A stretch of 55,777 nt of DNA from Parcubacteria group bacterium (GCA_943354475.1 CALRBT010000005.1:1-55777), one strand, 5' to 3'. Positions 20,574-32,789 are shown, counted from the stretch's first letter. Notes: a model not told the origin generated them from the letters alone. Translations and numbers: made by a program.

Positions 20574-21167
20574 TTACAGATGACTCTCACGTAATGACTG
20601 ATTGATTTCAAAAAGCGCCTTCTCGTGACAAGTATTCATTTCATCAATAAGTATCCGATTAAAATGAGTAGCCTGTACGAATCGATCTAGCTCATTATTT
20701 GGCGCAAAGTAACCTAGATGATACAGAATCTTCATAATCATAATGTATTCAAAATTTCGCAATTCATCTTTTGAAAACATCTCTAGACTTAAAAAATCCA
20801 AACTACTTTCAAGGAGTGCGTACAGTTCAATCTGAGGTTCTTCTCCGTGAAGTAAACGTCGGAGTAGCGTAAAAAAGCGAACGATGAGCAGCCGCTCCTC
20901 TCGCCTTGTCTCAAAATTCTTCCAGACACTATCTGGATTACCTGCATTAATTAAGCGCCAGATTTCCTTGCCTCGGACCAATGAGACATCACTCTGACAA
21001 TAGTCCTGCAGAGAAAATCTCAGTTTTGATTTCAGATGTCTCGCTCCGGTCGCTTGGGCACTAAGAAGGCCGAACTCTTTGGTAAAGATGGTGAGAAAAC
21101 GATTTGCTTCGCCGGAGTTGGTTCCTGAGAGGATAAATGCCTTGGTATGGTAAATATGCCTGGACAT
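20574..21167 (-). CDS. recO: DNA repair protein RecO (short)
   Basis: GEANRFLTIFTKEFGLLSAQATGARHLKSKL OB-fold N-terminus. Confidence 0.88.
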   Translation of the reverse strand: MSRHIYHTKAFILSGTNSGEANRFLTIFTKEFGLLSAQATGARHLKSKLRFSLQDYCQSDVSLVRGKEIWRLINAGNPDSVWKNFETRREERLLIVRFFTLLRRLLHGEEPQIELYALLESSLDFLSLEMFSKDELRNFEYIMIMKILYHLGYFAPNNELDRFVQATHFNRILIDEMNTCHEKALFEINQSLRESHL

Positions 21168-24100
21168 TACATCAATGTAACTTTGAACACGAAATCTCCA
21201 ACAAGAATTTCCCCACCGTCATTATCCCCATACTCAACAGCACTTGCTAATACCGTCCTTTTAATCTGTTCTTCAAATTTTTTCAACAATAATTGTCCCT
21301 CTTCTGTAGTGACAATTAACAACTTAACTTTATCATTTGGATTTAATCCTTTCTGCTTTCGCAATTCCTGAATTCCTCGAGTGAATTCACGGACATCTCC
21401 TTCCTCTTTAAGCTCTGGGGTAATTGTTACATCTAAGAAAACTGTGCGGTCTAATCCCTCACCACCAAAGGAAATATGTTTAACATTTAACTCATCTTTT
21501 ATTAACTCTAGCAATGCTTCATTTCCTTTTAGCGCTTGATTGTAGATCGTTAATTCCCCGAGTGGCTGCCTGACAACAATCTTTGCTCGCGATCTCGCCT
21601 CAAGTCCCAGTGTTACTAACTCTCTGACTTGCTTCATTTCATCAACAATATCAATCTTAAGATTTAATTTTGACTCTGGCCAACTAGCTAAGTGCACACT
21701 CTCGACCTCATCTTCAGTCTTAAGCTCAAGATAAAGATACTCAGCAAAGAATGGCATAGACGGTGCCATCAATTTTGCATACTCCTTGAGCACAAATTGT
21801 AGCGTACTCAAGGCTTTCTGTTTGTCCGCCAAATCATCGCCCTTGAGTCGATCCCTTGATCTGCGCAAATACCACACCGAAAGATCATCAACGAAAGCCA
21901 TCAGTGGTCTTGTCGCCCTATCTAGTTCATAAACCTCCATACCAGAGGTGACTTCGAGAATGAGTTGGTTGAGTCTTACTAATATCCAACGATCAAGGAC
22001 ATTATCTGATGTGTCTGAGGCGTCAACTGAAGCATCTTTGTAGAGCTTGTAAAACGAGAGAACGTTATCGAGCTTGCCAATAACCTTGTTAGCGGCTTCG
22101 GCAACCCCCTTCTCAAAGAAGTTAAGGTCTTCTGATTTCATCAATTGAGACGAGAGAAGATAATACCTCATCGCGTCAACTCCATATTTATCAAAAAGAA
22201 GTTGTGGATCAGGAAAATTATTTTTAGACTTAGACATTTTCTGACCATCTTCAGCAAGAATTGTTCCTGTAGTTACCACATTCTTAAACGACACCTTATC
22301 GAAAAGTAGTACAGAGAGGGTGTGTAGGTAATAGAACCACGTGCGTGTTTGTGCTATATACTCCGCGATAAAGTCAGCTGGGAAGTTATCATGGAACCAT
22401 TCCTTCCTCTCGAACGGATAATGATTGGCGGCAAATGGCATTGCACCCGACTCAAACCAACAATCAAAGACTTCTGGAGTTCTCGTCATGTCGCCTCCAC
22501 AGTCACAGCTAAGTGATACCTCATCGATATAAGGTCGGTGAAGATCTAGCTCATAATTTCCATTGTGTGGACGCACAGTAAATGACAGCAGTTGAATTTC
22601 ACCATTCTTGATAAAGTCACCATCTTTGCCCCACAACTCTATTGCCTTTTGAGCATCAAGTGCAGCTGCAACAGCCTGTATAAGCCAGCCAACGTATTCG
22701 TGTCCAACAATTAAAATATTTTTGTTTTTGTACTTTGTGTCTATTTCATAAAGAAATTCTCCGAGTCGCTTTTTCATTTGGAGAAGATTCTCTCCTCCTT
22801 CTGGTACTTTTGTAAATCGCTCCTCGTAATCTTTGAAGAAATTATGGTACTCGTCAACTGACTTTCCATCAAACTCACCGGTATTGATTTCACTCAAACG
22901 ACTATCGGTAACGACAGAGTCAGTCTCCAGACCTAATTCTCTTGCAACAATTTCTGCCGTCTCTTGGGTGCGCAAAAACGGAGAGACAAAAACCATATCA
23001 ATCTTTTTCTCTTTGAGAAGAGCGCTTGATTCGAGCACTTGTTCCTTCCCTTTTTCTGTAAGATGAGCGACTCCGGGAGTTTTTGAATCAACGACTTTTT
23101 TTACATTACTTTCAGCTTCGCCATGTCGCATTACAAAATATTGATTACCAGTCTTCCTAGTCAGGTCTCCGAGTTCATCAACAGAGGCGACGAATATTTG
23201 TTTGTGACAGGATGCACACCTCCAAATTGGTAATGGGGATGCCCAATAACGATTTCTTGAAATATTCCAGTCAGGTGCTCCTTGAACAATATTTTTAAAA
23301 CGCCCCTCCTTTAGATGTCCTGGTACCCAGTTTATCTTTTCATTAAGTCCTACTATGTTTTCCTTCTTCTTATTTACAGCCACAAACCATGCTGGAATTG
23401 CATAGTAATAAAGCGGTGTCTCACACCTAAAACAGTGTGGATATGAGTGAATGATCTTTTCTTTTGCAAAAAGATATCCTCGATGCGCAAGACTTTTTAT
23501 TATCTCAATATCAGTTCTCTGATGATCATCCTTGGGTTTAATCAGTAATCCTTTAAAATCAACAACTTCGTCTTTGAAACGTCCATCGTCCCCGACATGC
23601 CAAACAATGGGAATGTTTTTTTCCTTTGCAAGTTCCATATCTTCTTCCCCGTATGCTGGAGCTAGGTGCACAATTCCTGTCCCACTATCATCTGCAACAT
23701 ACGGAGCACTGTACACCTTCCAGGCATTTTCTTTATTTGGAAAGTTCTTGTCTAGAAAATAATCAAAAACTGGCTTGTACGATTTTCCTACGATCTCTTT
23801 ACCCTTGAATGTACTGACAATATTTGCGCCGTCAGGAAACACTTTATCAAGTAGTTTCTTACCAACAATGTACATTCCACCATCAGCTGAGACTTTCACA
23901 TATTCAATTTCTTCACCAACAGCGGCCGCCATATTTCCTGGAAGTGTCCACGGAGTAGTCGTCCACGCCAAGAGATAGGTTCCTGGTTCATCAACCAATT
24001 CAAATTTAACGGTTACTGAAATATCTGTAATATCCTTATAACTATTATCCATAGCAATTTCAGAATTTGCTATAGGTGTTTCGCAACGAGGGCAGTATGG

Positions 24101-24652
24101 CAATACTCTTGTTCCTTCATAGACTAGTCCTTTTTTGTTTAGCTCGCCAAGAGCATACCAAACTGACTCTATATACGAGTTATCCATTGTTTTGTATGAG
24201 CCATCAAAATCAACCCATCTACCCATTCTGTCAACGGTTTTTTTCCAATCGTGAACAAAGGTTAACACCTTACTTCGAGCGTAATCATTAAACTTTCCAA
24301 TGCCATAAGCTTCAATTTCTTTTTTCCCAGAAATTTTTAAATCTTTCTCAACAATATTTTCTATAGGTAGCCCGTGGCAATCCCATCCCCAACGACGTTC
24401 GACATATTTACCTCGCATTGTTTGATAACGTGGAACGGCATCTTTAATAGTACTGGCCAGAATGTGTCCATAGTGAGGCAACCCTGTAGCGAATGGTGGA
24501 CCATCATAAAAAACGTAAGAATTCTGAGGATCATTTTTCTTAAGCGACTTTTCAAAAATCTTGTTATCATCCCAAAATTTCAAAATCTCCTCCTCCCGCA
24601 GAGCGCCAGCGCTTTTCTCCACTTTTTCTGTTTGGTCTTTATTTTGAGCCAT
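21167..24652 (-). CDS. ileS: Isoleucine--tRNA ligase (type 2) with inserted histidine-phosphatase domain
   Basis: DGPPFATGLPHYGH, GWDCHGLP, WTTTPWTLP, DWNISRNRYW, QTRTWFY, KMSKS; insertion carries RHGE..SPFLRTQETA..GH. Confidence 0.96.
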   Translation of the reverse strand: MAQNKDQTEKVEKSAGALREEEILKFWDDNKIFEKSLKKNDPQNSYVFYDGPPFATGLPHYGHILASTIKDAVPRYQTMRGKYVERRWGWDCHGLPIENIVEKDLKISGKKEIEAYGIGKFNDYARSKVLTFVHDWKKTVDRMGRWVDFDGSYKTMDNSYIESVWYALGELNKKGLVYEGTRVLPYCPRCETPIANSEIAMDNSYKDITDISVTVKFELVDEPGTYLLAWTTTPWTLPGNMAAAVGEEIEYVKVSADGGMYIVGKKLLDKVFPDGANIVSTFKGKEIVGKSYKPVFDYFLDKNFPNKENAWKVYSAPYVADDSGTGIVHLAPAYGEEDMELAKEKNIPIVWHVGDDGRFKDEVVDFKGLLIKPKDDHQRTDIEIIKSLAHRGYLFAKEKIIHSYPHCFRCETPLYYYAIPAWFVAVNKKKENIVGLNEKINWVPGHLKEGRFKNIVQGAPDWNISRNRYWASPLPIWRCASCHKQIFVASVDELGDLTRKTGNQYFVMRHGEAESNVKKVVDSKTPGVAHLTEKGKEQVLESSALLKEKKIDMVFVSPFLRTQETAEIVARELGLETDSVVTDSRLSEINTGEFDGKSVDEYHNFFKDYEERFTKVPEGGENLLQMKKRLGEFLYEIDTKYKNKNILIVGHEYVGWLIQAVAAALDAQKAIELWGKDGDFIKNGEIQLLSFTVRPHNGNYELDLHRPYIDEVSLSCDCGGDMTRTPEVFDCWFESGAMPFAANHYPFERKEWFHDNFPADFIAEYIAQTRTWFYYLHTLSVLLFDKVSFKNVVTTGTILAEDGQKMSKSKNNFPDPQLLFDKYGVDAMRYYLLSSQLMKSEDLNFFEKGVAEAANKVIGKLDNVLSFYKLYKDASVDASDTSDNVLDRWILVRLNQLILEVTSGMEVYELDRATRPLMAFVDDLSVWYLRRSRDRLKGDDLADKQKALSTLQFVLKEYAKLMAPSMPFFAEYLYLELKTEDEVESVHLASWPESKLNLKIDIVDEMKQVRELVTLGLEARSRAKIVVRQPLGELTIYNQALKGNEALLELIKDELNVKHISFGGEGLDRTVFLDVTITPELKEEGDVREFTRGIQELRKQKGLNPNDKVKLLIVTTEEGQLLLKKFEEQIKRTVLASAVEYGDNDGGEILVGDFVFKVTLM

Positions 24653-25046: not shown

Positions 25047-25475
25047 CTACTTCCCCGAACTTCCAAATCCTCGCTCACCACGAACACTCTCTTCAAGTTC
25101 CAAGACTTCTACAATCTCTACTTCTTCAGATTTTTGAATAATCATTTGTGCCACCTTTTCTCCTTTTTTGAATGTATGGGTAACTTTTGAAAGATTAATA
25201 ATCCCTACCAACACCTCACCTCGATATCCGGAATCAACCACACCCCCAAGCGTCTTTAGTCCATTCTTGATTGCAAGTCCGCTCTTATCCCAAATAAGTC
25301 CCACATATCCAAAGGGAACTTCCACCGCCAAACCGGTGGCAATCCCCTTGCGCTCGCCTGGCTCTATGACCACATCTTCACGACTTAGCAAATCAAATGC
25401 GGCATCTCCTATATAAGCATAGGTCGGTAGTGGCAACTCTTTATCTAACCTTTTTATTTTTAAAACCAGATTCAT
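25047..25475 (-). CDS. dut: dUTP diphosphatase (trimeric)
   Basis: AAFDL, KSGLA, GVVDSGYRGE, AQMI, RGERGFGSSG. Confidence 0.97.
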   Translation of the reverse strand: MNLVLKIKRLDKELPLPTYAYIGDAAFDLLSREDVVIEPGERKGIATGLAVEVPFGYVGLIWDKSGLAIKNGLKTLGGVVDSGYRGEVLVGIINLSKVTHTFKKGEKVAQMIIQKSEEVEIVEVLELEESVRGERGFGSSGK

Positions 25476-26665
25476 TATTTTTTCTTACTCATTTCTTTTC
25501 GCAAAATCACGTCAATCTTCTCCGCAATCTTTTTCATATCCTTTTCTTTCTTCCCACGAGTTGTCTCAGCAGGAGTTCCAATTCTGATTCCTGAAGGATC
25601 CATCGGGCTACGGGTATCAAAGGGAATCGTGTTTTTATTGACAATAATGTCGTTTTTCTCTAACACATCCGTTGCGTCCTTACCGCCAATCCCCTTTCCA
25701 TCCATCCAAGTATCAACCAAGATCAAGTGACTGTCCGTCCCCCCTGAGACAATACGCCAGCCGAGTCCTGCCAAGCTCGCTGACAGTTCTTTGGCATTGG
25801 CAATAATCTGCTTTGCATAAATCTTAAATGCTGGAGTTGCTGCTTCTCCGAGCGCGACTGCGACCGCTGCAATCTGATTTAAATGTGGACCACCCTGCAT
25901 ACCAGGGAAAATTGCTTTATCAATCAAGATATCGATATTCCTTGAATCTTTCTTTGAGAAAATTAGGGCACTGCGTGGACCGCGCAATGTCTTGTGTACG
26001 GTAGTCATCACCACATCAGCGTATGGAAACGGCGATGGATAAACACCACCTGCAACCAAACCACCCAAGTGCGACATATCAACGAGTAGGTATGCTCCCA
26101 CTGAATCTGCAATTTCTCTAAATTTTTTAAAATCAATCTTGCGTGGATAGGCAGTAAATCCTGCGACAATGATATCTGGTTTATGCTCAAGAGCTATTTT
26201 CGAAATCTCCTCGTAATTAATTACTTCTGTTTTTTTATCGACACCGTAAGGAACCTGCTTCCAGAATTTACCCGTTATTGAAACCTTGTGTCCGTGCGTA
26301 AGATGCCCGCCGTGATCGAGACTCATTCCCATAATCTTGCCGCCAGTCGGCACGAGTGCGAGATAAACTGCGACGTTTGCAGGAGAGCCAGAGAGTGCTT
26401 GTACGTTAACCGCCCAACTGTTCGGAGAGAGCTTAAAGAGTTTCAGAGCTCTCGCCTTTGCCAAGTCCTCCACTTTGTCCGTCACGGAGTTGCCCGCATA
26501 GTAACGTTTGTGCGGATAGCCTTCAGCATATTTGTTGGTAAGCTCGGAGCCAAGAGCTTGAAGTACATCTCTCGAGACGTAATTCTCTGACGCAATGAGA
26601 TTAATCACCTTCTTTGAGCGAGCTGATTCTTCTTTGATTAATTTTTCGATTTGTTTGTCTTTCAT
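25475..26665 (-). CDS. glyA: Serine hydroxymethyltransferase
   Basis: LIASEN, NKYAEGYP, GGHLTHG, TTVHKTLRGPR; start trimmed to ATG 26665. Confidence 0.98.
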   Translation of the reverse strand: MKDKQIEKLIKEESARSKKVINLIASENYVSRDVLQALGSELTNKYAEGYPHKRYYAGNSVTDKVEDLAKARALKLFKLSPNSWAVNVQALSGSPANVAVYLALVPTGGKIMGMSLDHGGHLTHGHKVSITGKFWKQVPYGVDKKTEVINYEEISKIALEHKPDIIVAGFTAYPRKIDFKKFREIADSVGAYLLVDMSHLGGLVAGGVYPSPFPYADVVMTTVHKTLRGPRSALIFSKKDSRNIDILIDKAIFPGMQGGPHLNQIAAVAVALGEAATPAFKIYAKQIIANAKELSASLAGLGWRIVSGGTDSHLILVDTWMDGKGIGGKDATDVLEKNDIIVNKNTIPFDTRSPMDPSGIRIGTPAETTRGKKEKDMKKIAEKIDVILRKEMSKKK

Positions 26666-26710
26666 GGGAAATTTCGTTAGCCTTGATTGGCTAGATAATA
26701 CCATAAAATT

Positions 26711-26766: not shown

Positions 26767-27183
26767 CTAGGTTGTTGTTTCAGAATCCAGTCCGAGGTCT
26801 TTTTCGAGTGCGATGAGCTCGGATACGGTCTCTGCCAAACGATCATTCAGATTAGCTGCTTCGGCTTCAAGTTCTGACTTTTGTCTTAGTAGTTCCATAT
26901 GTCTGTTCAACTTAACCGTGCGTTCTTTGCGCAAATTACGACTAGCTCCTCGTAGAGCCTTAATCCAATCTGATGCGAGACCGTCAGGAGGACACTCCCG
27001 CAAAAGATCTTCCGCCGATAAAGTGTTTTCTTCTGTTTTTGGAACTTCGTCGCAAGCATCCATTGCGAACTCGACGCACTCATTACAAATAAAGACCGTC
27101 GGCCCAGCGATGAGTTTACTCACTTTTTCCCCGGACTTGTCACAGAATGAGCAATGCAGTGTATCCTTGGCGAAGTGTGCCAT
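26767..27183 (-). CDS. Stand-alone ClpX C4-type zinc-finger protein with coiled-coil tail
   Basis: [22 protein letters not shown] matches the ClpX ZBD; no AAA+ domain; GGAGGA SD upstream. Confidence 0.85.
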
Positions 27184-27292: not shown

Positions 27293-28195
27293 ATGAAGCA
27301 CGACCTCAAACTCAAAAATGTCCTCTCAATGAAAGAGTTGGAAAAAAGTATGCGTAATATTGTGTTTCGAGGACTCTATAACAAAGCGGGTGAGAAAATA
27401 AAGCCCTATGAAAACGCTACATTTAGTCTAGCCAAAGTCCACCCACCCAAAGCCATCGGTATACCTGCCGAGGTACGCATTGGTTCAAAGCGAGAGTTTC
27501 TCTTTACCCCACAGCCGACGGTCTATCAAAACCAAATCGAAATAATGGAGACTGTTGACGATTTTCTTAAAACAAAAGGGATGACGCTCACCAACCTTAA
27601 AGGAGCGGTTGAATATTCATGGGAGGGACGAGGAGATTTTCACATCCTTCCACCAATCATTGAAAAACATACTTACGATCTCAAGGAAGGCTTTATTAAC
27701 CTTGAGAAGCTCTCTTCTCGTTTTGGCGGAATGTACGTTCGTGATGCACGAGGAAACATGCACCATCTCTCGGACAGGGAGTTACATGGATTCTATATTG
27801 ATGAAGTAAGCAACCTCAGCTCACTTGAGGTATTTAACTCCAACGCACCACTCATCAACTACGGACTGCCTTATAGCGGAGAACATGACTTCTATATCAT
27901 TTGTGATGGAACACACCGCATTGACTACGCACTTGAGAAGTTAAACAAACCAATCACCGTCATCTTGGTTGAACCAAAAGTAAAATCAAAGCCTCTCATC
28001 CCCTACTACGCGTTCCCCGTACCCCTTCGTCCCACCATCAGACTCTCGAGTAAAAAAGCAGAGAAAATGTTTTACCGACTTGAACGGGACAAAATCCATT
28101 TACTCAACGATTACATTAAAAAGACACTTCACTATGATTGGGAAATTGTAGGGTTACAGGTTAGTAAGTTACGAAGCAATGTCGAAATTTTTTAA
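27293..28195 (+). CDS. Hypothetical protein with ParB/sulfiredoxin-like catalytic motif
   Basis: ILPPIIE...YIICDGTHRIDYA resembles the ParB/Srx DGxHR motif. Confidence 0.6.
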   Translation: MKHDLKLKNVLSMKELEKSMRNIVFRGLYNKAGEKIKPYENATFSLAKVHPPKAIGIPAEVRIGSKREFLFTPQPTVYQNQIEIMETVDDFLKTKGMTLTNLKGAVEYSWEGRGDFHILPPIIEKHTYDLKEGFINLEKLSSRFGGMYVRDARGNMHHLSDRELHGFYIDEVSNLSSLEVFNSNAPLINYGLPYSGEHDFYIICDGTHRIDYALEKLNKPITVILVEPKVKSKPLIPYYAFPVPLRPTIRLSSKKAEKMFYRLERDKIHLLNDYIKKTLHYDWEIVGLQVSKLRSNVEIF

Positions 28196-28377: not shown

Positions 28378-29268
28378 ATGAACAAATTTAATGAACAAAT
28401 TTTGCAGAAATTACAAAAAGGTTTGTCTCTTTCTGTAGTTAAAAAAGCAAACGCTCAAAATAACAGCGTTTCAATTGCAATCTCTACATCAGGTAAATCG
28501 TACCTCGGAGGTAAGATTGAATCAGACACCAACCTTCTCGACATTAGTTCGGAACATTCTGCTTTAGCACTGGCTCTAGCCCATCGTGATTATAAGATTG
28601 AACAAGTAATCACCTTGGTCGAAAATGATAGCGTTATCATTTCTCCTCTCATACTGAAGATACTCGTGGACTTTGGTATCCGAACCAAAAAACCTGTACG
28701 ATATATCGTACAAAATAAAAGCGGGCAAATTTTATTTAAGACAAATGATTCGCAAAAAGAAATTCCTTTTTATAAACCAGTCAAACAGATACTAACACTG
28801 TCCAACAAAAAGCTTGTTCATAATTTTAAACAAATTGATCCAAAACTTAGTAAAAAAATACTAGTCGATGAGTTAAGGAAGTTAGCTCTCGTAGGACTCG
28901 AAAGCGCCTTCACCACTAAAGATGGTTCCAGTCGCTACGGCGTCGCCGTAGCGACTGGAAGTGGCAAGGTCTATTTTGCCGGACAATACTCTTCACCTGA
29001 TAAAAGACTTGGACTCCATGGTGAGGTTTCTGCCACACTCACCGCCCTAATGAAGGGTGAGCGAGCAATTACCCATATTGCAATTGTTTCTGACAAGTTT
29101 CCAGACACACCAGCATTGATATGTGGTTGTTGCAGACAATGGCTCAGTGAATTAGCTCTGAAATTCAAATGGAATCTCCATATAATTTGTTTTGCAAAAA
29201 TGAACTCTAGTTATACTATGGATACTATAGAATCATTGCTCCCAAGGGCATGGTCAAGTAAAACATAG
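28378..29268 (+). CDS. Tandem cytidine-deaminase-fold protein (N-terminal domain degenerate, C-terminal domain with Zn ligands)
   Basis: C-terminal GVAVATGSGKVYFAG..LHGE..ICGCCRQWLSE; N-terminal repeat has SSEHSA..ISPLILK in place of the Zn ligands. Confidence 0.85.
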   Translation: MNKFNEQILQKLQKGLSLSVVKKANAQNNSVSIAISTSGKSYLGGKIESDTNLLDISSEHSALALALAHRDYKIEQVITLVENDSVIISPLILKILVDFGIRTKKPVRYIVQNKSGQILFKTNDSQKEIPFYKPVKQILTLSNKKLVHNFKQIDPKLSKKILVDELRKLALVGLESAFTTKDGSSRYGVAVATGSGKVYFAGQYSSPDKRLGLHGEVSATLTALMKGERAITHIAIVSDKFPDTPALICGCCRQWLSELALKFKWNLHIICFAKMNSSYTMDTIESLLPRAWSSKT

Positions 29269-31701
29269 ATGCCAAATAACACACTTCCATTTCCAATCGT
29301 CGACGCTCTCCTTCTGACTCCAAAAGAGGCCGATTCTGGAGCACTTGGTATCTGTACTAATACTTCAGCACCTGGACAAGTCTACAATGAGATCGAAGAA
29401 GAACAACGACCTTTTGTCTCGGTCATTGGTTCACTGATCGTTAGCCGCGATGGAACCGAGCGTATGATCTTAAACACACTAGCTCACCCATCGGTGCGCT
29501 ATATCATCCTCTTCTCCGAAGAGTCCCTCACTTTCTCACCAAGTACCAACCTCCTGTTAGCTCTCCAAAATGGTGTCAATTTCGAAGCTTCCGGAAACTA
29601 CATCAAAGACGGTAAGGCTGCCTCAGCACATTATCCAAATCTTTCGGCAAAAATCATTGATGCGTTTCGCGAGAATATTACCGTCATTCCACTCTTTATG
29701 TATCGAAATGATTATTCAAGACCTGTTGTACTTGAGTACTTAGAGTGGTTACGGCCAAAAATTAATGACGAGATTTACGAATTCCTCAAAGAAACCACGA
29801 CCAAAAAATCAATCTACTATGATAGTTTGAATGCACTAATTGCGCTCCTTAGTAAACTACCAAAAAAAGATAAGCCTTTTATCGACCTCGACCCCAAAGA
29901 ATTCCAGCATCTACAACCACCAAAAATAGAACTGTCAGCGGAAGATTTGACGGTGTCTGTACCATTTAAAGTTTCAAAAGAAAAAGAATTAATCCGTCTT
30001 GATATCGCTATCGAAGACAAAACATACTATCTCAAAGGTAAAAGTGAGTTCTTGATGGAATACTCTTTAATGAAATTTATTGGTGATGATAAAAAATTTA
30101 TCTCCCCACTCGAGCAACTACTTCTCGGCGCCGAACTTGCACGAGTCGATACCGAAATCAAAAACAAGATAGAAATAAAAACAAGGGTCCATTATGCTGA
30201 TATAACTGGGGCAATTGAAATTCCTCTTGAATCAAACACATCACTGATTACCGACAAACGCTTTTACTATAAAGTTAGTGTGCGGGAGCAAGATATCTCT
30301 GTTATGTGTTTAGCCTTTGATGTCTGCGAGGAGGTATTTGAATTACGCTCTCCAACAAACGGCGCGATATTCAACTGGCTCGCGGAGAAAAATCGGTTTG
30401 AGGAGTATGAAATGGATATACTCCATAGAATGGACGTTGGTGGGCAAATAGGAAGGGCTGGGATTGCAGCCAAACTTGGCTTTGCCTTTATTCAAGATTT
30501 TTCGAGTATCTTCAGGATTAACACCGAGGAGCTTCCCTTACTCATATCACAAGGTGATAGTTTTCTTGAAATACATAAAAATATTTTGATGAAAATTTAT
30601 ACCGAAGGACTGACCGAAGAACATGGGGATAAGCAGAAAGGGTTGGCACGAACTGGTATCGCTCTTGCTATCTATCGAGATTCGAAAAATGCGCTCGCTT
30701 CACTACCCGCCTTCTACAAACAAGGTGATCAAAGTACTGAAGAGATGCGCCTTAATTACAAAAAACAGCTCCTTCGTTTTGATCACGATGGTGACTACAG
30801 TTATGGACAACGTACCCGGGCACATTTTGGATTCGACCAACTACCAAAGACAATTGAAATACTAAAGAGTAATCCTAACCACGCTACCGTTATTCAACGA
30901 TTTGATCCAACCGTTGATATGGGAAGTCATATTGTTCCAGAGACTGGTAAACTCAAATATACCCATGACCCATGCCTCACTCATGATATTTTTATTGTCC
31001 ATGGTGGGAAACTTCATTCGTTCCATATTGCCCGTGCACACAATACCGTCAACGCCTATCCTGAAAATATTTTTGGCCTCTTCGATGCTTATGTTACAAC
31101 CATTCGAGAAGAGTTGGGTGTAAAGAGTGGAGATATGTATATGCTTTCAAACCGTGCCAACATCCTCCTTCTAACTGAAGAGCAACGCACCAAGAAAATA
31201 CTAACCGAGCCATCAAAGCCTTCGGATGATATGGATACCGCAAGTGGTCCGTATGAGGTAGGAGAGGATCTGGAGAAAGTTGACGTTGAAGGAGTTGTCG
31301 CCTACAGATTTATAGAGTTACAAGAGAGGCTTGAGAAACCAACAAGCGAATCAGGAAAAAAGATTATTAGTCGATTAGAAAATTTTGAAGGGATAGATAC
31401 AATTGAGCGTGCTGTTAGCTACTACGAGAGTAAGGGAGTGATGCATAACAATCCAGTACTCACCGAATACCAAGCAGGACAACATAGTACTCAGAATAAT
31501 CCCCAAGCTGATCAACTAATCTTTTTCCAAGCAAACACTATGGGAGGAAAACTTCACGCAACTGCAGTATTCGCAAACCGTTCACTAAAAAACATAAATG
31601 ACGATACCGAAACAATAAACTACCTCTCTACCCTCTTTAGTAAACGCCTGAAAGTACCTCTTGGGCACCTATCTCTATTCTACGTAGGCTATACTAAGTA
31701 A
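29269..31701 (+). CDS. MtrA-like / DUF4346 x2 / thymidylate-synthase-like multidomain protein
   Basis: GTERMILNTLAHPSVRYIILFSEE (MtrA-like); HRMDVGGQIGRAGIAAKLGFAFIQD (DUF4346-like); YSYGQR..FDQL..DPCL..RAHN..YPEN (TS fold). Confidence 0.8.
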   Translation: MPNNTLPFPIVDALLLTPKEADSGALGICTNTSAPGQVYNEIEEEQRPFVSVIGSLIVSRDGTERMILNTLAHPSVRYIILFSEESLTFSPSTNLLLALQNGVNFEASGNYIKDGKAASAHYPNLSAKIIDAFRENITVIPLFMYRNDYSRPVVLEYLEWLRPKINDEIYEFLKETTTKKSIYYDSLNALIALLSKLPKKDKPFIDLDPKEFQHLQPPKIELSAEDLTVSVPFKVSKEKELIRLDIAIEDKTYYLKGKSEFLMEYSLMKFIGDDKKFISPLEQLLLGAELARVDTEIKNKIEIKTRVHYADITGAIEIPLESNTSLITDKRFYYKVSVREQDISVMCLAFDVCEEVFELRSPTNGAIFNWLAEKNRFEEYEMDILHRMDVGGQIGRAGIAAKLGFAFIQDFSSIFRINTEELPLLISQGDSFLEIHKNILMKIYTEGLTEEHGDKQKGLARTGIALAIYRDSKNALASLPAFYKQGDQSTEEMRLNYKKQLLRFDHDGDYSYGQRTRAHFGFDQLPKTIEILKSNPNHATVIQRFDPTVDMGSHIVPETGKLKYTHDPCLTHDIFIVHGGKLHSFHIARAHNTVNAYPENIFGLFDAYVTTIREELGVKSGDMYMLSNRANILLLTEEQRTKKILTEPSKPSDDMDTASGPYEVGEDLEKVDVEGVVAYRFIELQERLEKPTSESGKKIISRLENFEGIDTIERAVSYYESKGVMHNNPVLTEYQAGQHSTQNNPQADQLIFFQANTMGGKLHATAVFANRSLKNINDDTETINYLSTLFSKRLKVPLGHLSLFYVGYTK

Positions 31702-31702
31702 T

Positions 31703-32359
31703 ATGTTTGATTTTACGGAAATTAAAGTCATCGGGTTTGATCTCGATCAAACCCTCTACGAGAAGTCGCACGAAGTGGATGCTGAAATTCAAAGCTATAT
31801 CTATGAGAAAATTTCCACACAAAAAAAATGTTCTCTTGAAGAGGCTGAGCTTCTTTTCTCTGGTTTATATAAAAACGGTCGTGGTTTAAGTGGTAGCAAA
31901 ACTCTAGAAACCTTGGGAGTTCCAAACGCAGGTGAGGTAGTGCAAGAAGCCCTCGAATTTGCAAACATTGCTTCAGTTTTAGTTCCAAATAAGGCAACGA
32001 TTTCTCTGCTAAAAAATATAAAAGAAACCTATAAAAATATTGACCTGCTTACTGGTTCAAATGACTCAAATGCATCTATAAAACTTGCGAAGCTAAATAT
32101 TGGTAAAGAAATCTTTGGTACAATCTTTACCGCAGACAATGCTTCAAAATCAGATGGTTCGATGTATAAACTTTGGTTGGATACCTATGATTTTCCAGCA
32201 GAGAAATTCCTCTATATTGGTGACCGTCCAATGAGTGACTATGAGATTCCAAAAAAATACGGGATTAAAAGTATTTTAGTAAATGTTAAGGAGCAAGACC
32301 CTTCGATTGATTGTTTACAGTTAAAAAATCTATCTGACTTAAATCAGTATCTCCTCTAA
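31703..32359 (+). CDS. HAD-superfamily hydrolase (nucleotidase-like)
   Basis: GFDLDQTLY motif I, LLTGS motif II, YIGDRPMSD motif IV. Confidence 0.92.
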   Translation: MFDFTEIKVIGFDLDQTLYEKSHEVDAEIQSYIYEKISTQKKCSLEEAELLFSGLYKNGRGLSGSKTLETLGVPNAGEVVQEALEFANIASVLVPNKATISLLKNIKETYKNIDLLTGSNDSNASIKLAKLNIGKEIFGTIFTADNASKSDGSMYKLWLDTYDFPAEKFLYIGDRPMSDYEIPKKYGIKSILVNVKEQDPSIDCLQLKNLSDLNQYLL

Positions 32360-32399: not shown

Positions 32400-32789
32400 C
32401 TACCCCTCTGCAGTCATCCGAGATGGAGTTGCCCACACAAAGTGGCGAGCAACGCAGTTTTCTTTTTGGAAATAACAAGGTAAACAAGTCTCTGCTGGTA
32501 AAACAACCTCGAAATCATAGTGGTCACGAACGAGATGAAGATAAGTTCGTTCACCAATAAGTACACCCTTTAAAACAGCTTTTTCAACTATACAAAGTGG
32601 CAAATTATATTCTTCACAAAGTCTTGTAAGAGCCTCATTTCGCATCTCCCCTTCCTGAAGATGTGTCTCTAACGAAGAGACGCCTTTGTATGGCTGGGAA
32701 CCTTGGGGGTTAGTTGGCAGACCTTCCAAATACTGCCATAGAATCCCCGTAGTATCTCTTTTGTAGATAAATAAGCGGAGTATCGACAT
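32400..32789 (-). CDS. Orphan hypothetical protein
   Basis: 129-aa ATG ORF with GGAGGA SD upstream. Confidence 0.55.
   Translation of the reverse strand: MSILRLFIYKRDTTGILWQYLEGLPTNPQGSQPYKGVSSLETHLQEGEMRNEALTRLCEEYNLPLCIVEKAVLKGVLIGERTYLHLVRDHYDFEVVLPAETCLPCYFQKENCVARHFVWATPSRMTAEG

What the first reader, a model, noticed from the sequence alone, without database searches (positions are those of the whole stretch)
30520..31701. Thymidylate-synthase-like domain with rewired active site and a second degenerate TS half
Seen: Cys569 (DPC), Arg589 and Asn600 have the same spacing as E. coli ThyA C146, R166 and N177. However, RSxD reads RAHN and the H-x-Y pair reads N-I-L. Established: in ThyA the Asp of RSxD and His207/Tyr209 contact the pyrimidine/folate and the deoxyribose 3'-OH, and Asn177 specifies uracil. 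The C-terminal ~150 aa repeats TS-like strands (DQLIFFQANTMGGKLHATAVFANRS) without the Cys. Inference: a single-chain pseudo-dimer acting on a uracil-type substrate other than free dUMP, or using a different C1 donor.
Basis: partly seen in the sequence, partly recalled or inferred. Interest (0 to 1): 0.78.

Follow-up and report, generated by a model that had tools for sequence, protein, structure and literature searches.

The report
Single-chain pseudo-dimeric thymidylate-synthase-like enzyme
An 810-residue protein of a tiny lake-water bacterium joins a live thymidylate-synthase-like domain to a dead copy of itself, and may be this organism's only way to make the DNA base thymine or a substitute for it.

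Summary
ORF 29269-31701 (+, 810 aa) contains a divergent thymidylate synthase (TS) domain at aa 420-646. It keeps Y94, C146, R166 and N177 (E. coli numbering) as Y512, C569, R589 and N600. It changes L143 to H566, S167 to A590, D169 to N592, H207 to N631 and Y209 to L633.

The last 164 aa form a second TS fold without the Cys: all 7 chains with VIA Z of 8 or more are TS-superfamily, and hhalign to the protein's own TS domain gives 95%. A complex prediction packs the two domains through equivalent strands (0.94 against 0.00 for controls).

Upstream lie an MtrA-fold domain, whose cobalt-ligand His is replaced by Phe, and a DUF4346-like region.

The gene sits in a conserved module: ParB-CE protein, tandem deaminase, this gene, HAD nucleotidase. 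dUTPase and SHMT lie beside it. The six genomes carrying it showed no canonical ThyA, ThyX, TK, Tmk or DHFR.

Best reading: a Cys-dependent C5-modifying enzyme acting on dUMP, probably the cell's thymidylate source, handling its cofactor differently from ThyA.

The D169N and L143H changes resemble flavin-dependent hydroxylating TS homologues and hydroxymethylases, so a non-methyl product remains a live rival.

No description of the family was found in print.

The parts
29269..31701 (+). Whole ORF, 810 aa (P0001): MtrA-like domain, middle region with DUF4346-like part, catalytic TS-like domain, dead TS-like domain
   Evidence: Full-length homologues of about 790-836 aa at 50-67% identity. AF2 model: pLDDT 87.6, pTM 0.73.
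29269..29880 (+). aa 1-204: MtrA-fold domain. The cobalt-ligand His84 of MtrA is replaced by Phe89, and Glu54 by Ser59.
   Evidence: VIA: 5laa_B Z 18.1, rmsd 1.9 A, 151 of 159 residues aligned. Pfam PF04208 E 2.9e-4, 21 bits against a cut-off of 25. NCBIfam NF002126 E 1.6e-7. phmmer alignment to 5laa. F89 is conserved in at least 97% of 129 members. The role of His84 is taken from PMC4915002 (passages read).
30181..30483 (+). About aa 305-405: DUF4346-like (PF14251) region inside the aa 205-419 middle segment
   Evidence: P0001 itself has no Pfam hit here. Homologues do: P0027 aa 336-425, E 2.2e-7, 32 bits against a cut-off of 29.6; P0029 aa 305-395; P0008 aa 634-711. These were placed on P0001 through alignment A1. 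The boundaries are approximate.
30526..31206 (+). aa 420-646: catalytic TS-like domain
   Evidence: TIGR03283 E 7.1e-15, aa 434-630. hhalign to ThyA 97.3%. VIA: 9iqc_A Z 20.5, 5jnh_A Z 19.1, 3ix6_B Z 18.4. Foldseek hits.
30973..30975 (+). Cys569, the equivalent of the ThyA C146 nucleophile
   Evidence: Cys in 128 of 129 members.
30964..30966 (+). His566, at the ThyA L143 position (three residues before the Cys)
   Evidence: H in 124, E in 2 and K in 2 of 129 members. Alignment.
31033..31044 (+). R589-A590-H591-N592, replacing ThyA R166-S167-C168-D169
   Evidence: R in 129 of 129. N592 in 124 of 129; the 5 sequences with Asp are the distant high-GC subgroup.
31066..31068 (+). Asn600, the equivalent of ThyA N177 (uracil-specifying)
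   Evidence: N in 129 of 129 members.
31159..31167 (+). N631-I632-L633, replacing ThyA H207-L208-Y209
   Evidence: N631 in 128 of 129. L633 in 123 of 129, R in 5.
31207..31698 (+). aa 647-810: second, Cys-less TS-fold domain (the pseudo-subunit)
   Evidence: Model pLDDT 91.6. Foldseek and VIA. hhalign to the protein's own TS domain: 95%, E 4e-8. Predicted packing on the catalytic domain.
31432..31452 (+). K722-G723-V-M-H726-N727-N728: conserved loop of the dead domain, at the position of ThyA R126'/R127'
   Evidence: Of 129 members: K or R in 126, G in 124, H in 123, N in 122, N in 125. Residues 721-722 and 725-732 are in the predicted interface, together with 589-590 of the catalytic domain.
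27293..28195 (+). ParB-CE domain protein (300 aa), first gene of the module
   Evidence: PF24392 E 2.4e-6, 28 bits against a cut-off of 23. Upstream of the TS-like gene in 5 of 5 related loci. Found with this query in 0 of 150 other genomes of the class. A full ParB-CE domain lies directly upstream of the distant homologue in L038 (E 8.5e-40).
28378..29268 (+). Tandem cytidine/dCMP-deaminase-like protein (296 aa). Its stop codon abuts the start of the 810-aa ORF.
   Evidence: TIGR01354 E 2.8e-10, aa 188-294. Conserved in 5 of 5 related loci. Fused to the N terminus of homologue P0008.
31703..32359 (+). HAD hydrolase (218 aa), closest to pyrimidine 5'-nucleotidase models. It starts 1 nt after the 810-aa ORF ends.
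   Evidence: PF13419 E 1.2e-9. TIGR01993 E 8.3e-11 and TIGR02254 E 2.3e-7, both below their cut-offs. Conserved in 5 of 5 related loci. Fused to the C terminus of homologue P0009.
25047..25475 (-). dUTPase, divergently placed upstream of the module
   Evidence: PF00692 E 2.2e-28. In the same position in 4 of 5 related loci.
25475..26704 (-). Serine hydroxymethyltransferase (SHMT)
   Evidence: PF00464 E 9.7e-159. Adjacent to dut here and in 1 of 5 related loci, L031.

Best explanation
The ORF encodes a four-part enzyme of an uncharacterised family (here called TS810), found mainly in Patescibacteria.

Shown by computation:
- aa 420-646 is a divergent thymidylate-synthase-fold domain. It keeps the nucleophile Cys569, Tyr512 (Y94), Arg589 (R166) and the uracil-specifying Asn600 (N177).
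- aa 647-810 is a duplicated TS fold with no Cys.
- The two domains are predicted to pack back to back through their equivalent beta-strands. One chain would then imitate the obligate ThyA homodimer, but with a single active site.
- The dead domain's conserved K722/H726/N727/N728 loop lies where ThyA's partner subunit inserts Arg126'/Arg127'.

Inferred:
- The enzyme attacks C6 of a uracil nucleotide with Cys569 and modifies C5.
- The substrate is most likely dUMP, supplied by the co-operonic deaminase and the adjacent dUTPase.
- Its product is most likely thymidylate. The carrier genomes show no ThyA, ThyX or thymidine kinase, whereas 126 of 150 sampled genomes of the same class carry a recognisable TS.
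- Cofactor handling differs from ThyA. The pterin-contacting Asp169 is Asn, Leu143 is His, no DHFR is present, and an MtrA-fold domain (without the cobalt-ligand His) and a DUF4346-like region are fused upstream. The C1 unit is therefore probably delivered or reduced without net production of dihydrofolate.
- The ParB-CE partner is a candidate nucleotide kinase or activator, since no Tmk is detectable. The HAD protein is a candidate pyrimidine nucleotidase.
For: Fold and catalytic residues.

Dead TS domain.

Pseudo-dimer:
- ipSAE was 0.95, 0.94 and 0.94 in three runs; the best of 3 controls was 0.00.
- The runs agree in at least 87% of their contacts, and the partner's pLDDT is at least 86.
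- In the tool's calibration, this mark was reached by 58 of 80 solved complexes and by 2 of 110 mismatched pairs. My own alignment was used, so these counts hold only roughly.
- Contacts alternate along the equivalent strands: 572/574/576, 585/587 and 624/626 against 751/752, 765/767/769 and 802/804/806.
- Residue 539 (the R127 position) touches 769/770 (the Q165/R166 position of the dead domain). This is the cross-subunit geometry expected of a ThyA dimer; the primed Arg roles are taken from PMC6005164 (passages read).

Module:
- ParB-CE, deaminase, TS810 and HAD lie in the same order in 5 of 5 related loci, and dut lies upstream in 4 of 5.
- Fused forms exist: deaminase+TS810 (P0008) and TS810+HAD (P0009).
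- The same parts lie beside distant high-GC homologues: ParB-CE in L038 and L044, HAD in L039, deaminase in L044.

Phyletic pattern in the 6 carrier genomes:
- ThyX 0 of 6.
- Tmk 0 of 6.
- TK 0 of 6.
- DHFR 0 of 6.
- PF00303: one weak hit in 1 of 6, which is a different TS-like/methyltransferase fusion.
- The window's own genome is 98.2% complete.

Class baseline, 150 other genomes:
- ThyA-type or ThyX found in 126.
- DHFR in 37 of 40 genomes with canonical ThyA, but in only 2 of 19 with divergent TS types.

SHMT is present and adjacent.
Against: No activity data exist.

Several ThyA-defining residues are changed: L143H, S167A, D169N, H207N, Y209L, and R127' lost.
- In PMC13326640 (passages read), D169N is described as diagnostic of flavin-dependent 5-hydroxy-dCMP synthases.
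- In the same paper, a non-bulky residue at L143 is linked to water access and hydroxymethylation.

The best structural match is the flavin-dependent dCMP monooxygenase 9iqc_A. Its Z of 20.5 is only 1.4 to 2.1 above MilA and ThyA.

The closest phage relatives by tblastn are PaMx11/Ab18-type enzymes. One record annotates its enzyme as deoxyuridylate hydroxymethyltransferase.

A nucleotidase in the operon is not needed for plain dTMP synthesis.

The same module occurs in high-GC bacteria whose ThyA/ThyX status I could not determine. If they have a normal TS, the module does something else there.

Lack of a detectable Tmk is not specific to this family: 32 of 150 class genomes also lack it.

The six carrier genomes are probably related to each other, so the counts are not independent. 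Completeness is known only for G000.

The complex prediction may pass from memory of solved ThyA homodimers. It shows likeness, not binding.

The alignments of R21, E58, W80 and W83 are unreliable.
Confidence: 0.5

Rival explanations
1. The enzyme makes a non-methyl C5 derivative of dUMP instead of dTMP: either 5-hydroxymethyl-dUMP (folate-dependent hydration of the exocyclic methylene) or 5-hydroxy-dUMP (flavin and O2). The module would then resemble the enzyme sets of phages with modified thymine, and the product would end up in DNA or in a metabolite. In that scheme the deaminase and dUTPase feed dUMP, the TS homologue modifies it, a kinase activates the product, and a nucleotidase removes unwanted dTMP.
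For: - D169N is present in 124 of 129 members, and L143 is His, Glu or Lys in 128 of 129.
- PMC13326640 (passages read) reports that every tested D169N homologue made 5-hydroxy-dC. It also reports that L143 excludes water in ThyA, whereas hydroxymethylases carry Asp or Glu there.
- The best structural match is 9iqc_A (Z 20.5, rmsd 2.5 A, 205 residues). 9iqu is the top Foldseek hit.
- The nearest phage hits are PaMx11-type enzymes, and PaMx11 gp51 has L143D.
- Hydroxymethylases regenerate THF, and hydroxylases need no folate. Either would fit DHFR being found in 0 of 6 carrier genomes.
- The operon holds a nucleotidase-like HAD protein and a ParB-fold protein. ParB-fold proteins include kinases (PMC12704722) and an activator of a thymine dioxygenase (PMC13229309).
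- The enzyme sets of hmU phages such as SPO1 are recalled from memory, not read.
Against: - A cell still needs dTTP, and no other source is visible in these genomes.
- The distant subgroup keeps Asp169 (5 of 5) yet has the same module.
- SHMT is adjacent, which would be pointless for a flavin-dependent hydroxylase.
- Short archaeal-type TS domains also lack a bulky residue at the L143 position, so that marker may not carry over to this clade.
- The Z differences among the TS-superfamily hits are small.
- No glycosyltransferase or other DNA-hypermodification gene lies in the module.
Confidence: 0.25
2. The enzyme acts on a uracil-type compound other than dUMP: UMP, a nucleoside, a di- or triphosphate, or a 5-amino-6-ribitylamino-uracil-type intermediate. 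The module would then make a specialised pyrimidine metabolite or cofactor rather than a DNA precursor.
For: - The sugar 3'-OH ligands H207 and Y209 are replaced by N631 and L633 (or Arg in the distant subgroup), and the phosphate ligands S167 and R127' are lost. Their roles are taken from PMC6005164.
- New invariant residues R515 and R544 appear.
- The module of deaminase, HAD phosphatase and kinase-like protein is also typical of cofactor and nucleoside-antibiotic pathways (recalled). The HAD protein weakly matches YigB (E 0.0028).
- The module is also present in high-GC bacteria.
Against: - dUTPase is adjacent in 4 of 5 related loci and in the window.
- Genomes of about 0.5-0.8 Mb rarely keep secondary metabolism.
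- The phyletic complementarity with ThyA/ThyX would be left unexplained.
- R166 and N177 are intact.
- An active Vibrio ThyA also lacks Arg127' (PMC6005164).
Confidence: 0.12
3. The TS-like domain no longer catalyses anything. The protein would be a nucleotide- or pterin-binding regulator or scaffold for the deaminase, ParB-CE and HAD partners.
For: - Many canonical residues are lost.
- One of the two TS domains is clearly dead.
- Pfam PF00303 does not recognise the protein.
Against: Cys569, Tyr512, Arg589 and Asn600 are conserved in 128-129 of 129 members across roughly 45-67% overall identity. That is the pattern expected of a working active site.
Confidence: 0.03

Closest known systems
ThyA, folate-dependent thymidylate synthase (E. 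coli ThyA; Pfam PF00303)
   Same: - Same fold (VIA Z 18.4 to 3ix6_B).
- P-C nucleophile motif, Y94, R166 and N177 kept.
- Two TS folds packed back to back.
   Different: - One chain carries both folds, and only one has a Cys.
- L143H, H147L, S167A, D169N, H207N and Y209L; R127' lost; the W80/W83 region and the C-terminal closing segment have no counterpart in the alignment.
- No PF00303 hit.
- No DHFR in the carrier genomes.
- Extra MtrA-like and DUF4346-like domains.
MtrA-TS-DUF4346 fusion proteins of about 470-500 aa in Patescibacteria and DPANN archaea, annotated 'thymidylate synthase' (for example P0042; TIGR03283-like short TS)
   Same: - MtrA-like N-terminal domain lacking the cobalt-ligand His in most members.
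- Short TS core with H147L.
- DUF4346 module present.
- Their genomes mostly lack DHFR (2 of 19 have it).
   Different: - Domain order is MtrA-TS-DUF4346, not MtrA-DUF4346-TS-TS'.
- They keep R126/R127, S167, D169, H207 and Y209 and have no second TS domain.
- They often sit next to Tmk.
- No ParB-CE partner was seen in the class sample.
Flavin-dependent 5-hydroxy-dCMP synthases of phages (AfhB of phage HY126, PDB 9iqc/9iqu; RB69 gp48)
   Same: - Best structural match (Z 20.5, rmsd 2.5 A, 205 residues; Foldseek E 7.2e-9, TMt 0.74).
- Asn at D169 and a non-bulky residue at L143.
- Compact TS core of about 220 residues.
   Different: - These enzymes carry N177D and act on dCMP; TS810 keeps Asn (uracil).
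- They have no MtrA, DUF4346 or dead-TS domains.
- Flavin binding by TS810 is untested.
Pyrimidine hydroxymethylases of the TS superfamily (MilA CMP hydroxymethylase 5jnh; T4 dCMP hydroxymethylase 6l18; PaMx11 gp51-type phage enzymes)
   Same: - Strong structural matches (MilA Z 19.1, rmsd 1.8 A; T4 dCH Z 14.9).
- Nearest phage sequences at 25-28% identity, E about 1e-8.
- A polar residue at the L143 position.
   Different: PaMx11 gp51 keeps R21, E58, R126/R127, S167, D169, H207 and Y209 and has Asp at L143. TS810 has changed all of these.
MtrA, the corrinoid-binding subunit of methyl-H4MPT:CoM methyltransferase (PDB 5laa)
   Same: The N-terminal 204 aa share the fold (Z 18.1, rmsd 1.9 A, 151 of 159 residues) and show weak sequence homology.
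   Different: His84, the cobalt ligand, is Phe89 in at least 97% of members, and Glu54 is Ser59. The domain has no membrane anchor and is fused to a TS fold.

Membership tests
ThyA thymidylate synthase (PF00303 / EC 2.1.1.45) | TS alpha/beta fold | tested here: met
   VIA Z 18.4 to 3ix6_B and 17.8 to 6auj_A over aa 430-653. Foldseek probability 1.00.
ThyA thymidylate synthase (PF00303 / EC 2.1.1.45) | Profile score over the curated cut-off | tested here: not met
   No PF00303 hit at E up to 0.1. No hit in the six-frame genome search. TIGR03283 scored 55 bits against a cut-off of 174.55.
ThyA thymidylate synthase (PF00303 / EC 2.1.1.45) | Catalytic Cys146, Tyr94 and Asn177 | tested here: met
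   C569, Y512 and N600, conserved in 128, 128 and 129 of 129 members.
ThyA thymidylate synthase (PF00303 / EC 2.1.1.45) | Four phosphate-binding Arg (R21, R126', R127', R166) plus S167 | tested here: not met
   Only R166 (R589) is kept. The R126 position is His here (R or K in 107 of 129), R127 is Ala, and S167 is Ala. The R21 alignment is unreliable; the invariant K457 lies nearby.
ThyA thymidylate synthase (PF00303 / EC 2.1.1.45) | Asp169 (pterin contact), and His207/Tyr209 (3'-OH contacts) | tested here: not met
   N592, N631 and L633. The roles of His207 and Tyr209 are taken from PMC6005164; the Asp169 pterin contact is recalled, not read.
ThyA thymidylate synthase (PF00303 / EC 2.1.1.45) | Obligate homodimer with two active sites | tested here: not met
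   Replaced by a predicted intramolecular pair of one live and one dead TS domain. Homodimerisation of the whole chain was not tested.
ThyA thymidylate synthase (PF00303 / EC 2.1.1.45) | Converts dUMP + CH2-THF into dTMP + DHF | not testable with these tools
   Needs an enzyme assay.
Flavin-dependent 5-hydroxypyrimidine-nucleotide synthases (AfhB / RB69 gp48 type) | Asn at the D169 position | tested here: met
   N592 in 124 of 129 members. The criterion is taken from PMC13326640.
Flavin-dependent 5-hydroxypyrimidine-nucleotide synthases (AfhB / RB69 gp48 type) | Asp at N177 (dCMP substrate) and Glu at L143 | tested here: not met
   N600 is kept in 129 of 129. The L143 position is His in 124 and Glu in only 2 of 129.
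Flavin-dependent 5-hydroxypyrimidine-nucleotide synthases (AfhB / RB69 gp48 type) | Bound flavin and O2-dependent hydroxylation | not testable with these tools
   Needs purified protein.
TS-superfamily hydroxymethylases (T4 gp42, MilA, PaMx11 gp51 type) | Acidic residue at the L143 position, with the remaining ThyA binding residues kept | tested here: not met
   His566 instead of Asp or Glu. S167, D169, H207 and Y209 are changed, whereas PaMx11 gp51 keeps them.
MtrA corrinoid protein (PF04208) | MtrA fold | tested here: met
   5laa_B Z 18.1, rmsd 1.9 A, 151 of 159 residues aligned.
MtrA corrinoid protein (PF04208) | His84 cobalt ligand and Glu54 | tested here: not met
   F89 and S59 in the phmmer alignment to 5laa. 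F89 is conserved in at least 97% of 129 members. Roles are taken from PMC4915002.
MtrA corrinoid protein (PF04208) | Pfam score over the cut-off | tested here: not met
   21 bits against a cut-off of 25. Homologue P0009 reaches 31.3 bits.
PterinBD-DUF4346 (PF14251) | Pfam score over the cut-off | tested here: inconclusive
   No hit in P0001. Homologue P0027 scores 32 bits against a cut-off of 29.6. P0029 and P0008 fall below the cut-off.

The most novel reading that the evidence does not exclude
These Patescibacteria, and some high-GC bacteria with the same module, may not make thymidylate by either known route.

One possibility is that TS810 is a third kind of thymidylate synthase: a ThyA fold that uses a flavin or another non-folate reductant and therefore needs no DHFR.

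The bolder possibility is that the module of deaminase, dUTPase, TS homologue, ParB-fold kinase and nucleotidase is the cellular counterpart of the enzyme sets of phages with modified thymine. The chromosome of a free-standing cell would then carry 5-hydroxymethyl- or 5-hydroxy-uracil in place of thymine.
Probability: 0.1. Interest if true: 0.95.

Novelty: new variant of a known kind. Interest (0 to 1): 0.74.

Why it matters
Every cell must make dTTP, and only two thymidylate synthase types (ThyA and ThyX) are textbook.

This is a protein family of at least 176 clusters at 90% identity. It has a new architecture: a single-chain pseudo-dimer of one live and one dead TS fold, joined to MtrA-like and DUF4346-like domains. 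It comes with a fixed set of partner genes. The genomes that carry it show none of ThyA, ThyX, TK, Tmk or DHFR.

If the family makes dTMP, it fills a gap in the metabolic reconstruction of ultra-small bacteria. It would also show how an obligate homodimer enzyme can become a one-site pseudo-dimer.

If it makes 5-hydroxy- or 5-hydroxymethyl-dUMP, it would point to non-canonical DNA in cellular organisms.

Either way, it gives a concrete and cheap experiment: thyA complementation plus LC-MS. It also gives a candidate non-orthologous dTMP kinase or activator, the ParB-CE protein.

Tried and rejected
Corrinoid-dependent methyl transfer through the MtrA-like domain. I considered it, then marked it down. 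The cobalt-ligand His84 is Phe89 in at least 97% of 129 members, and most TS-fused MtrA-like domains also lack the His.

An alternative register placing GDMYMLSN opposite the ThyA GDTHLYSN motif (recalled), which would give H207=Y624. I rejected it.

Literature. Searches (DUF4346: 0 papers) found no paper describing this family or a single-chain TS pseudo-dimer. PMC12455944 and PMC11974145 (passages read) mention only ordinary thyA.

Phage relatives.
- Pattern scans of viral contigs with P0001 and with alignment A3 found none.
- tblastn against phage records found only single-domain TS homologues; 0 of 74 records covered 80% or more of the query.
- The ParB-CE protein had no phage tblastn hit. 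The ESM Atlas does list ParB-CE clusters that are partly viral.
- PHROGs gave only 'thymidylate synthase' and a generic HAD family.

ParB-CE protein. There was no sequence match to any solved structure. Its role as kinase or activator is inference only.

Taxonomy of the high-GC subgroup. A protein search with P0039 returned 3 proteins without organism names, and the cluster look-up gave none either. I therefore could not test whether those bacteria also have ThyA/ThyX.

Sequencing runs. 5 runs hold the stretch or part of it, from 2 studies, all lake-water DNA kept as Logan contigs. 2 of them may be the source of the window. No RNA holder is listed and no raw reads are kept. Read laying was therefore not used, and neither expression nor base modification could be examined.

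R21, E58, W80 and W83 could not be aligned reliably and are not used as evidence.

I first labelled ORF 21167-24652 'RNR-like' inside a script. Pfam shows it is a class I aminoacyl-tRNA synthetase, so that label was wrong.

Full report
WHAT IS THERE

The finding's span (30520-31701) is the C-terminal half of a single ORF, 29269-31701 on the + strand, 810 aa.

Pfam finds only a sub-threshold MtrA match at aa 50-143 (E 2.9e-4). NCBIfam finds the methanogen-type thymidylate synthase model TIGR03283 at aa 434-630 (E 7.1e-15, 55 bits against a cut-off of 174.55) and MtrA models at the N terminus.

THE FAMILY

An exhaustive profile-free search of 1.84 billion representatives gave 130 proteins at E of 0.001 or below. 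They fall into three groups:
- About nine full-length relatives at 45-56% identity, plus fragments.
- Six distant relatives of 811-906 aa.
- Many proteins of about 470-500 aa that match both the MtrA-like part and the TS part.

The word-indexed search gave 176 clusters. The best 120 listed are almost all 790-836 aa at 50-67% identity. NCBI names them 'hypothetical protein', from Candidatus Sungbacteria, Kaiserbacteria, Zambryskibacteria, Paceibacterota and Saccharimonadales. JGI names some 'thymidylate synthase'.

The proteins of about 480 aa have the Pfam architecture MtrA + Thymidylat_synt + PterinBD-DUF4346. In the 810-aa family, the DUF4346-like region lies before the TS domain instead.

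THE CATALYTIC DOMAIN

The full-length AF2 model is confident (pLDDT 87.6, pTM 0.73). Foldseek returns only TS-superfamily chains. The VIA search of 48,161 chains aligns aa 422-646 as follows:
- Flavin-dependent dCMP monooxygenase 9iqc_A: Z 20.5, rmsd 2.5 A, 205 residues.
- MilA: Z 19.1.
- ThyA from Brucella: Z 18.4.
- T4 dCMP hydroxymethylase: Z 14.9.

hhalign of the family against canonical ThyA gives 97.3% probability.

Residue by residue, in E. coli numbering:
- Kept: Y94=Y512, C146=C569, R166=R589, N177=N600, in 128-129 of 129 members.
- Changed: L143=H566 (His in 124 of 129), H147=L570, S167=A590, D169=N592 (Asn in 124 of 129; the 5 with Asp are the distant subgroup), H207=N631, Y209=L633.
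- R126/R127 = H538/A539. The R126 position is Arg or Lys in 107 of 129 members; the R127 position is Ala in 106.

The short MtrA-TS-DUF4346 proteins keep R126/R127, S167, D169, H207 and Y209. The rewiring is therefore specific to the 810-aa family.

The roles of these residues are tabulated in PMC6005164 (passages read):
- Arg21, Arg126', Arg127' and Arg166 bind the dUMP phosphate; the primed residues come from the other subunit.
- His207 and Tyr209 bind the sugar hydroxyl.
- Asn177 sets base specificity.

THE SECOND TS DOMAIN AND THE PSEUDO-DIMER

aa 647-810 were modelled alone (pLDDT 91.6, pTM 0.86).
- Foldseek: TS chains at the top (E 2.6e-5).
- VIA: the 7 chains with Z of 8 or more are all TS-superfamily (best Z 11.4, 141 of 164 residues aligned). 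The next chain has Z 4.7.
- hhalign: homologous to the protein's own TS domain (95%, E 4e-8), and more weakly to canonical ThyA (59%, E 9e-5).

This domain has no Cys at the C146 position. It does keep strongly conserved residues: K722, G723, H726, N727, N728, Q746, L750, F752, F753, Q754, N756 and N770.

The complex prediction for aa 420-646 with aa 647-810 scored 0.95, 0.94 and 0.94, against 0.00 for the best of three controls.
- The runs share at least 87% of their contacts, and the partner's pLDDT is at least 86.
- In the tool's calibration, the mark was reached by 58 of 80 solved complexes and by 2 of 110 mismatched pairs. These counts hold only roughly here because my own alignment was used.
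- The contacts run along the equivalent strands of the two domains.
- Residue 539 (the R127 position) touches 769/770 (the Q165/R166 position of the dead domain).
- The dead domain's 721-732 loop and the live domain's 589-590 are both in the interface.

This is the geometry of a ThyA homodimer, with one site deleted. The pass may come from the model's memory of solved ThyA dimers, so it shows likeness rather than proof.

THE N-TERMINAL HALF

aa 5-204 match MtrA with cobalamin (5laa_B: Z 18.1, rmsd 1.9 A, 151 of 159 residues). However, the cobalt ligand His84 and its partner Glu54 (PMC4915002, passages read) are Phe89 and Ser59. Phe89 is conserved in at least 97% of members. Most TS-fused MtrA-like domains also lack the His. 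A His-on corrinoid is therefore unlikely.

GENE CONTEXT

The deaminase gene's stop codon abuts the start of the 810-aa ORF, and the HAD gene starts 1 nt after its end.

In 5 of 5 related loci from species-representative genomes, the order ParB-CE, tandem deaminase, TS810, HAD is kept. dUTPase lies divergently upstream in 4 of 5, as it does in the window. SHMT lies beside dUTPase in the window and in 1 of the 5 loci.

One homologue carries the deaminase fused at its N terminus (P0008). Another carries the HAD domain fused at its C terminus (P0009).

Sixteen metagenome loci encode the distant subgroup; the nine whose composition I computed have G+C 0.58-0.73. The neighbouring ORFs I scanned, in L038, L039 and L044, again show the same parts:
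- A full ParB-CE gene directly upstream (L038, E 8.5e-40; also L044).
- A HAD-containing protein (L039).
- A dCMP-type deaminase (L044).

The four parts therefore form a module that is older than the Patescibacteria clade.

PHYLETIC PATTERN

The window's genome is 786 kb and 98.2% complete. Searches of this genome and the five other carriers gave:
- ThyX: 0 of 6.
- Tmk: 0 of 6.
- TK: 0 of 6.
- DHFR: 0 of 6.
- dNK: none in the window's own genome.
- PF00303: only one weak match (32.6 bits) in G152. It is a different 416-aa TS-like/methyltransferase fusion.

In 150 other genomes of the same class:
- No full-length TS810 was found. Nine genomes matched only the TS core or the MtrA part, in ORFs of 280-562 aa.
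- No ParB-CE relative was found.
- 59 genomes have a PF00303-type TS and 69 have ThyX. 126 have at least one of the two.
- DHFR accompanies canonical ThyA in 37 of 40 genomes, but the divergent TS types in only 2 of 19.
- Tmk was found in 118 of 150: 32 of 40 with canonical ThyA, 8 of 19 with divergent TS, and 78 of 91 with no PF00303 hit.

A TS is thus the norm in this class, and the carriers lack every known one. This favours a thymidylate role for TS810. The whole MtrA-fused clade appears to work without FolA-type DHFR.

The carriers are probably related to each other. The completeness of the five other carriers is unknown, so these counts are not independent tests.

WHICH CHEMISTRY

PMC13326640 (passages read) makes two relevant points:
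- Asn at D169 marked every tested phage TS homologue that makes 5-hydroxy-dCMP with a flavin.
- Bulky L143 is thought to exclude water in ThyA, while hydroxymethylases carry Asp or Glu there.

TS810 has Asn592 and His566 at these positions but keeps the uracil-specifying Asn600.

Its nearest phage relatives by tblastn (74 records, 25-28% identity, E about 1e-8) are PaMx11/Ab18-type enzymes. One record annotates its enzyme as deoxyuridylate hydroxymethyltransferase. PaMx11 gp51 has L143D but otherwise canonical residues.

From memory, not read: PaMx11-like phages carry hypermodified thymidine derived from 5-hydroxymethyl-dUMP. Phages with hydroxymethyluracil DNA, such as SPO1, induce a dCMP deaminase, a dUMP hydroxymethylase, a dTMP nucleotidase and a dedicated kinase. 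That set resembles this module.

ParB-fold proteins include kinases (SerK, SbnI, sulfiredoxin; PMC12704722) and an activator of a phage thymine dioxygenase (PMC13229309).

These points keep a non-methyl product as a serious rival. Against it:
- The cell's need for dTTP.
- The adjacent SHMT.
- Asp169 kept in the distant subgroup, which has the same module.
- The lack of a bulky L143 in the short TS types as well.

VERDICT

The pseudo-dimer inference is supported by homology, fold and predicted packing.

The most likely function is Cys569-dependent C5 modification of dUMP, supplying thymidylate in genomes that lack ThyA and ThyX, with cofactor handling that does not need DHFR (confidence about 0.5). 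Hydroxymethylation or hydroxylation is the main alternative (about 0.25).

The family, its architecture and its module were not found in the literature searched.

It is a new variant within the TS superfamily, and of high interest because a simple complementation and LC-MS experiment would decide between an unrecognised route to thymidylate and a non-canonical DNA base in a cellular organism.

Noticed in passing
window 21167-24652 (-): An 1161-aa class I aminoacyl-tRNA synthetase (tRNA-synt_1, Anticodon_1, DUF5915) with a histidine-phosphatase domain (His_Phos_1, E 5.7e-29) inserted at aa 505-667. A relative at 51-54% identity lies near the module in 4 of 5 related loci.
   Followed up: partly
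window 28378-29268 (+): The deaminase is itself a tandem protein. Only the C-terminal half matches the deaminase models (aa 188-294) and shows the H-x-E and C-x-x-C zinc motifs by eye in the translation. The N-terminal half looks degenerate. This would be a second live-plus-dead duplication in the same operon.
   Followed up: partly
window 26767-27183 (-): A 138-aa protein with only a ClpX-type C4 zinc finger (E 1.8e-14) followed by a coiled-coil-like tail. It lies between SHMT and the module.
   Followed up: no
L052:1310-2560 (-), genome G152: A 416-aa protein that joins a short TS-like domain (PF00303, 32.6 bits; PC motif present) to what looks by eye like a SAM-methyltransferase glycine-rich motif. 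It occurs in a genome that also carries TS810.
   Followed up: partly
class sample, e.g. G104:C6:31683-32957, G130:C5:33114-34316, G141:C4:56476-57660: Many ThyX genes of this class are ORFs of 450-600 aa with two Thy1 matches in one frame, that is, tandem-duplicated ThyX. This is another single-chain doubling of a thymidylate synthase in Patescibacteria.
   Followed up: no
G042:C13, G107:C20, G069:C1: The short MtrA-TS-DUF4346 genes lie within about 1 kb of a thymidylate kinase gene in these genomes. A 90%-identity cluster of an Aenigmatarchaeota TS (P0042) also holds a 660-aa 'thymidylate synthase' and a fragment named dTMP kinase.
   Followed up: no
window 32400-32789 (-): A 129-aa ORF between the HAD gene and rplK with no Pfam, NCBIfam or PHROG match. 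Related loci have an unmatched ORF of 183-215 aa in the same place.
   Followed up: no
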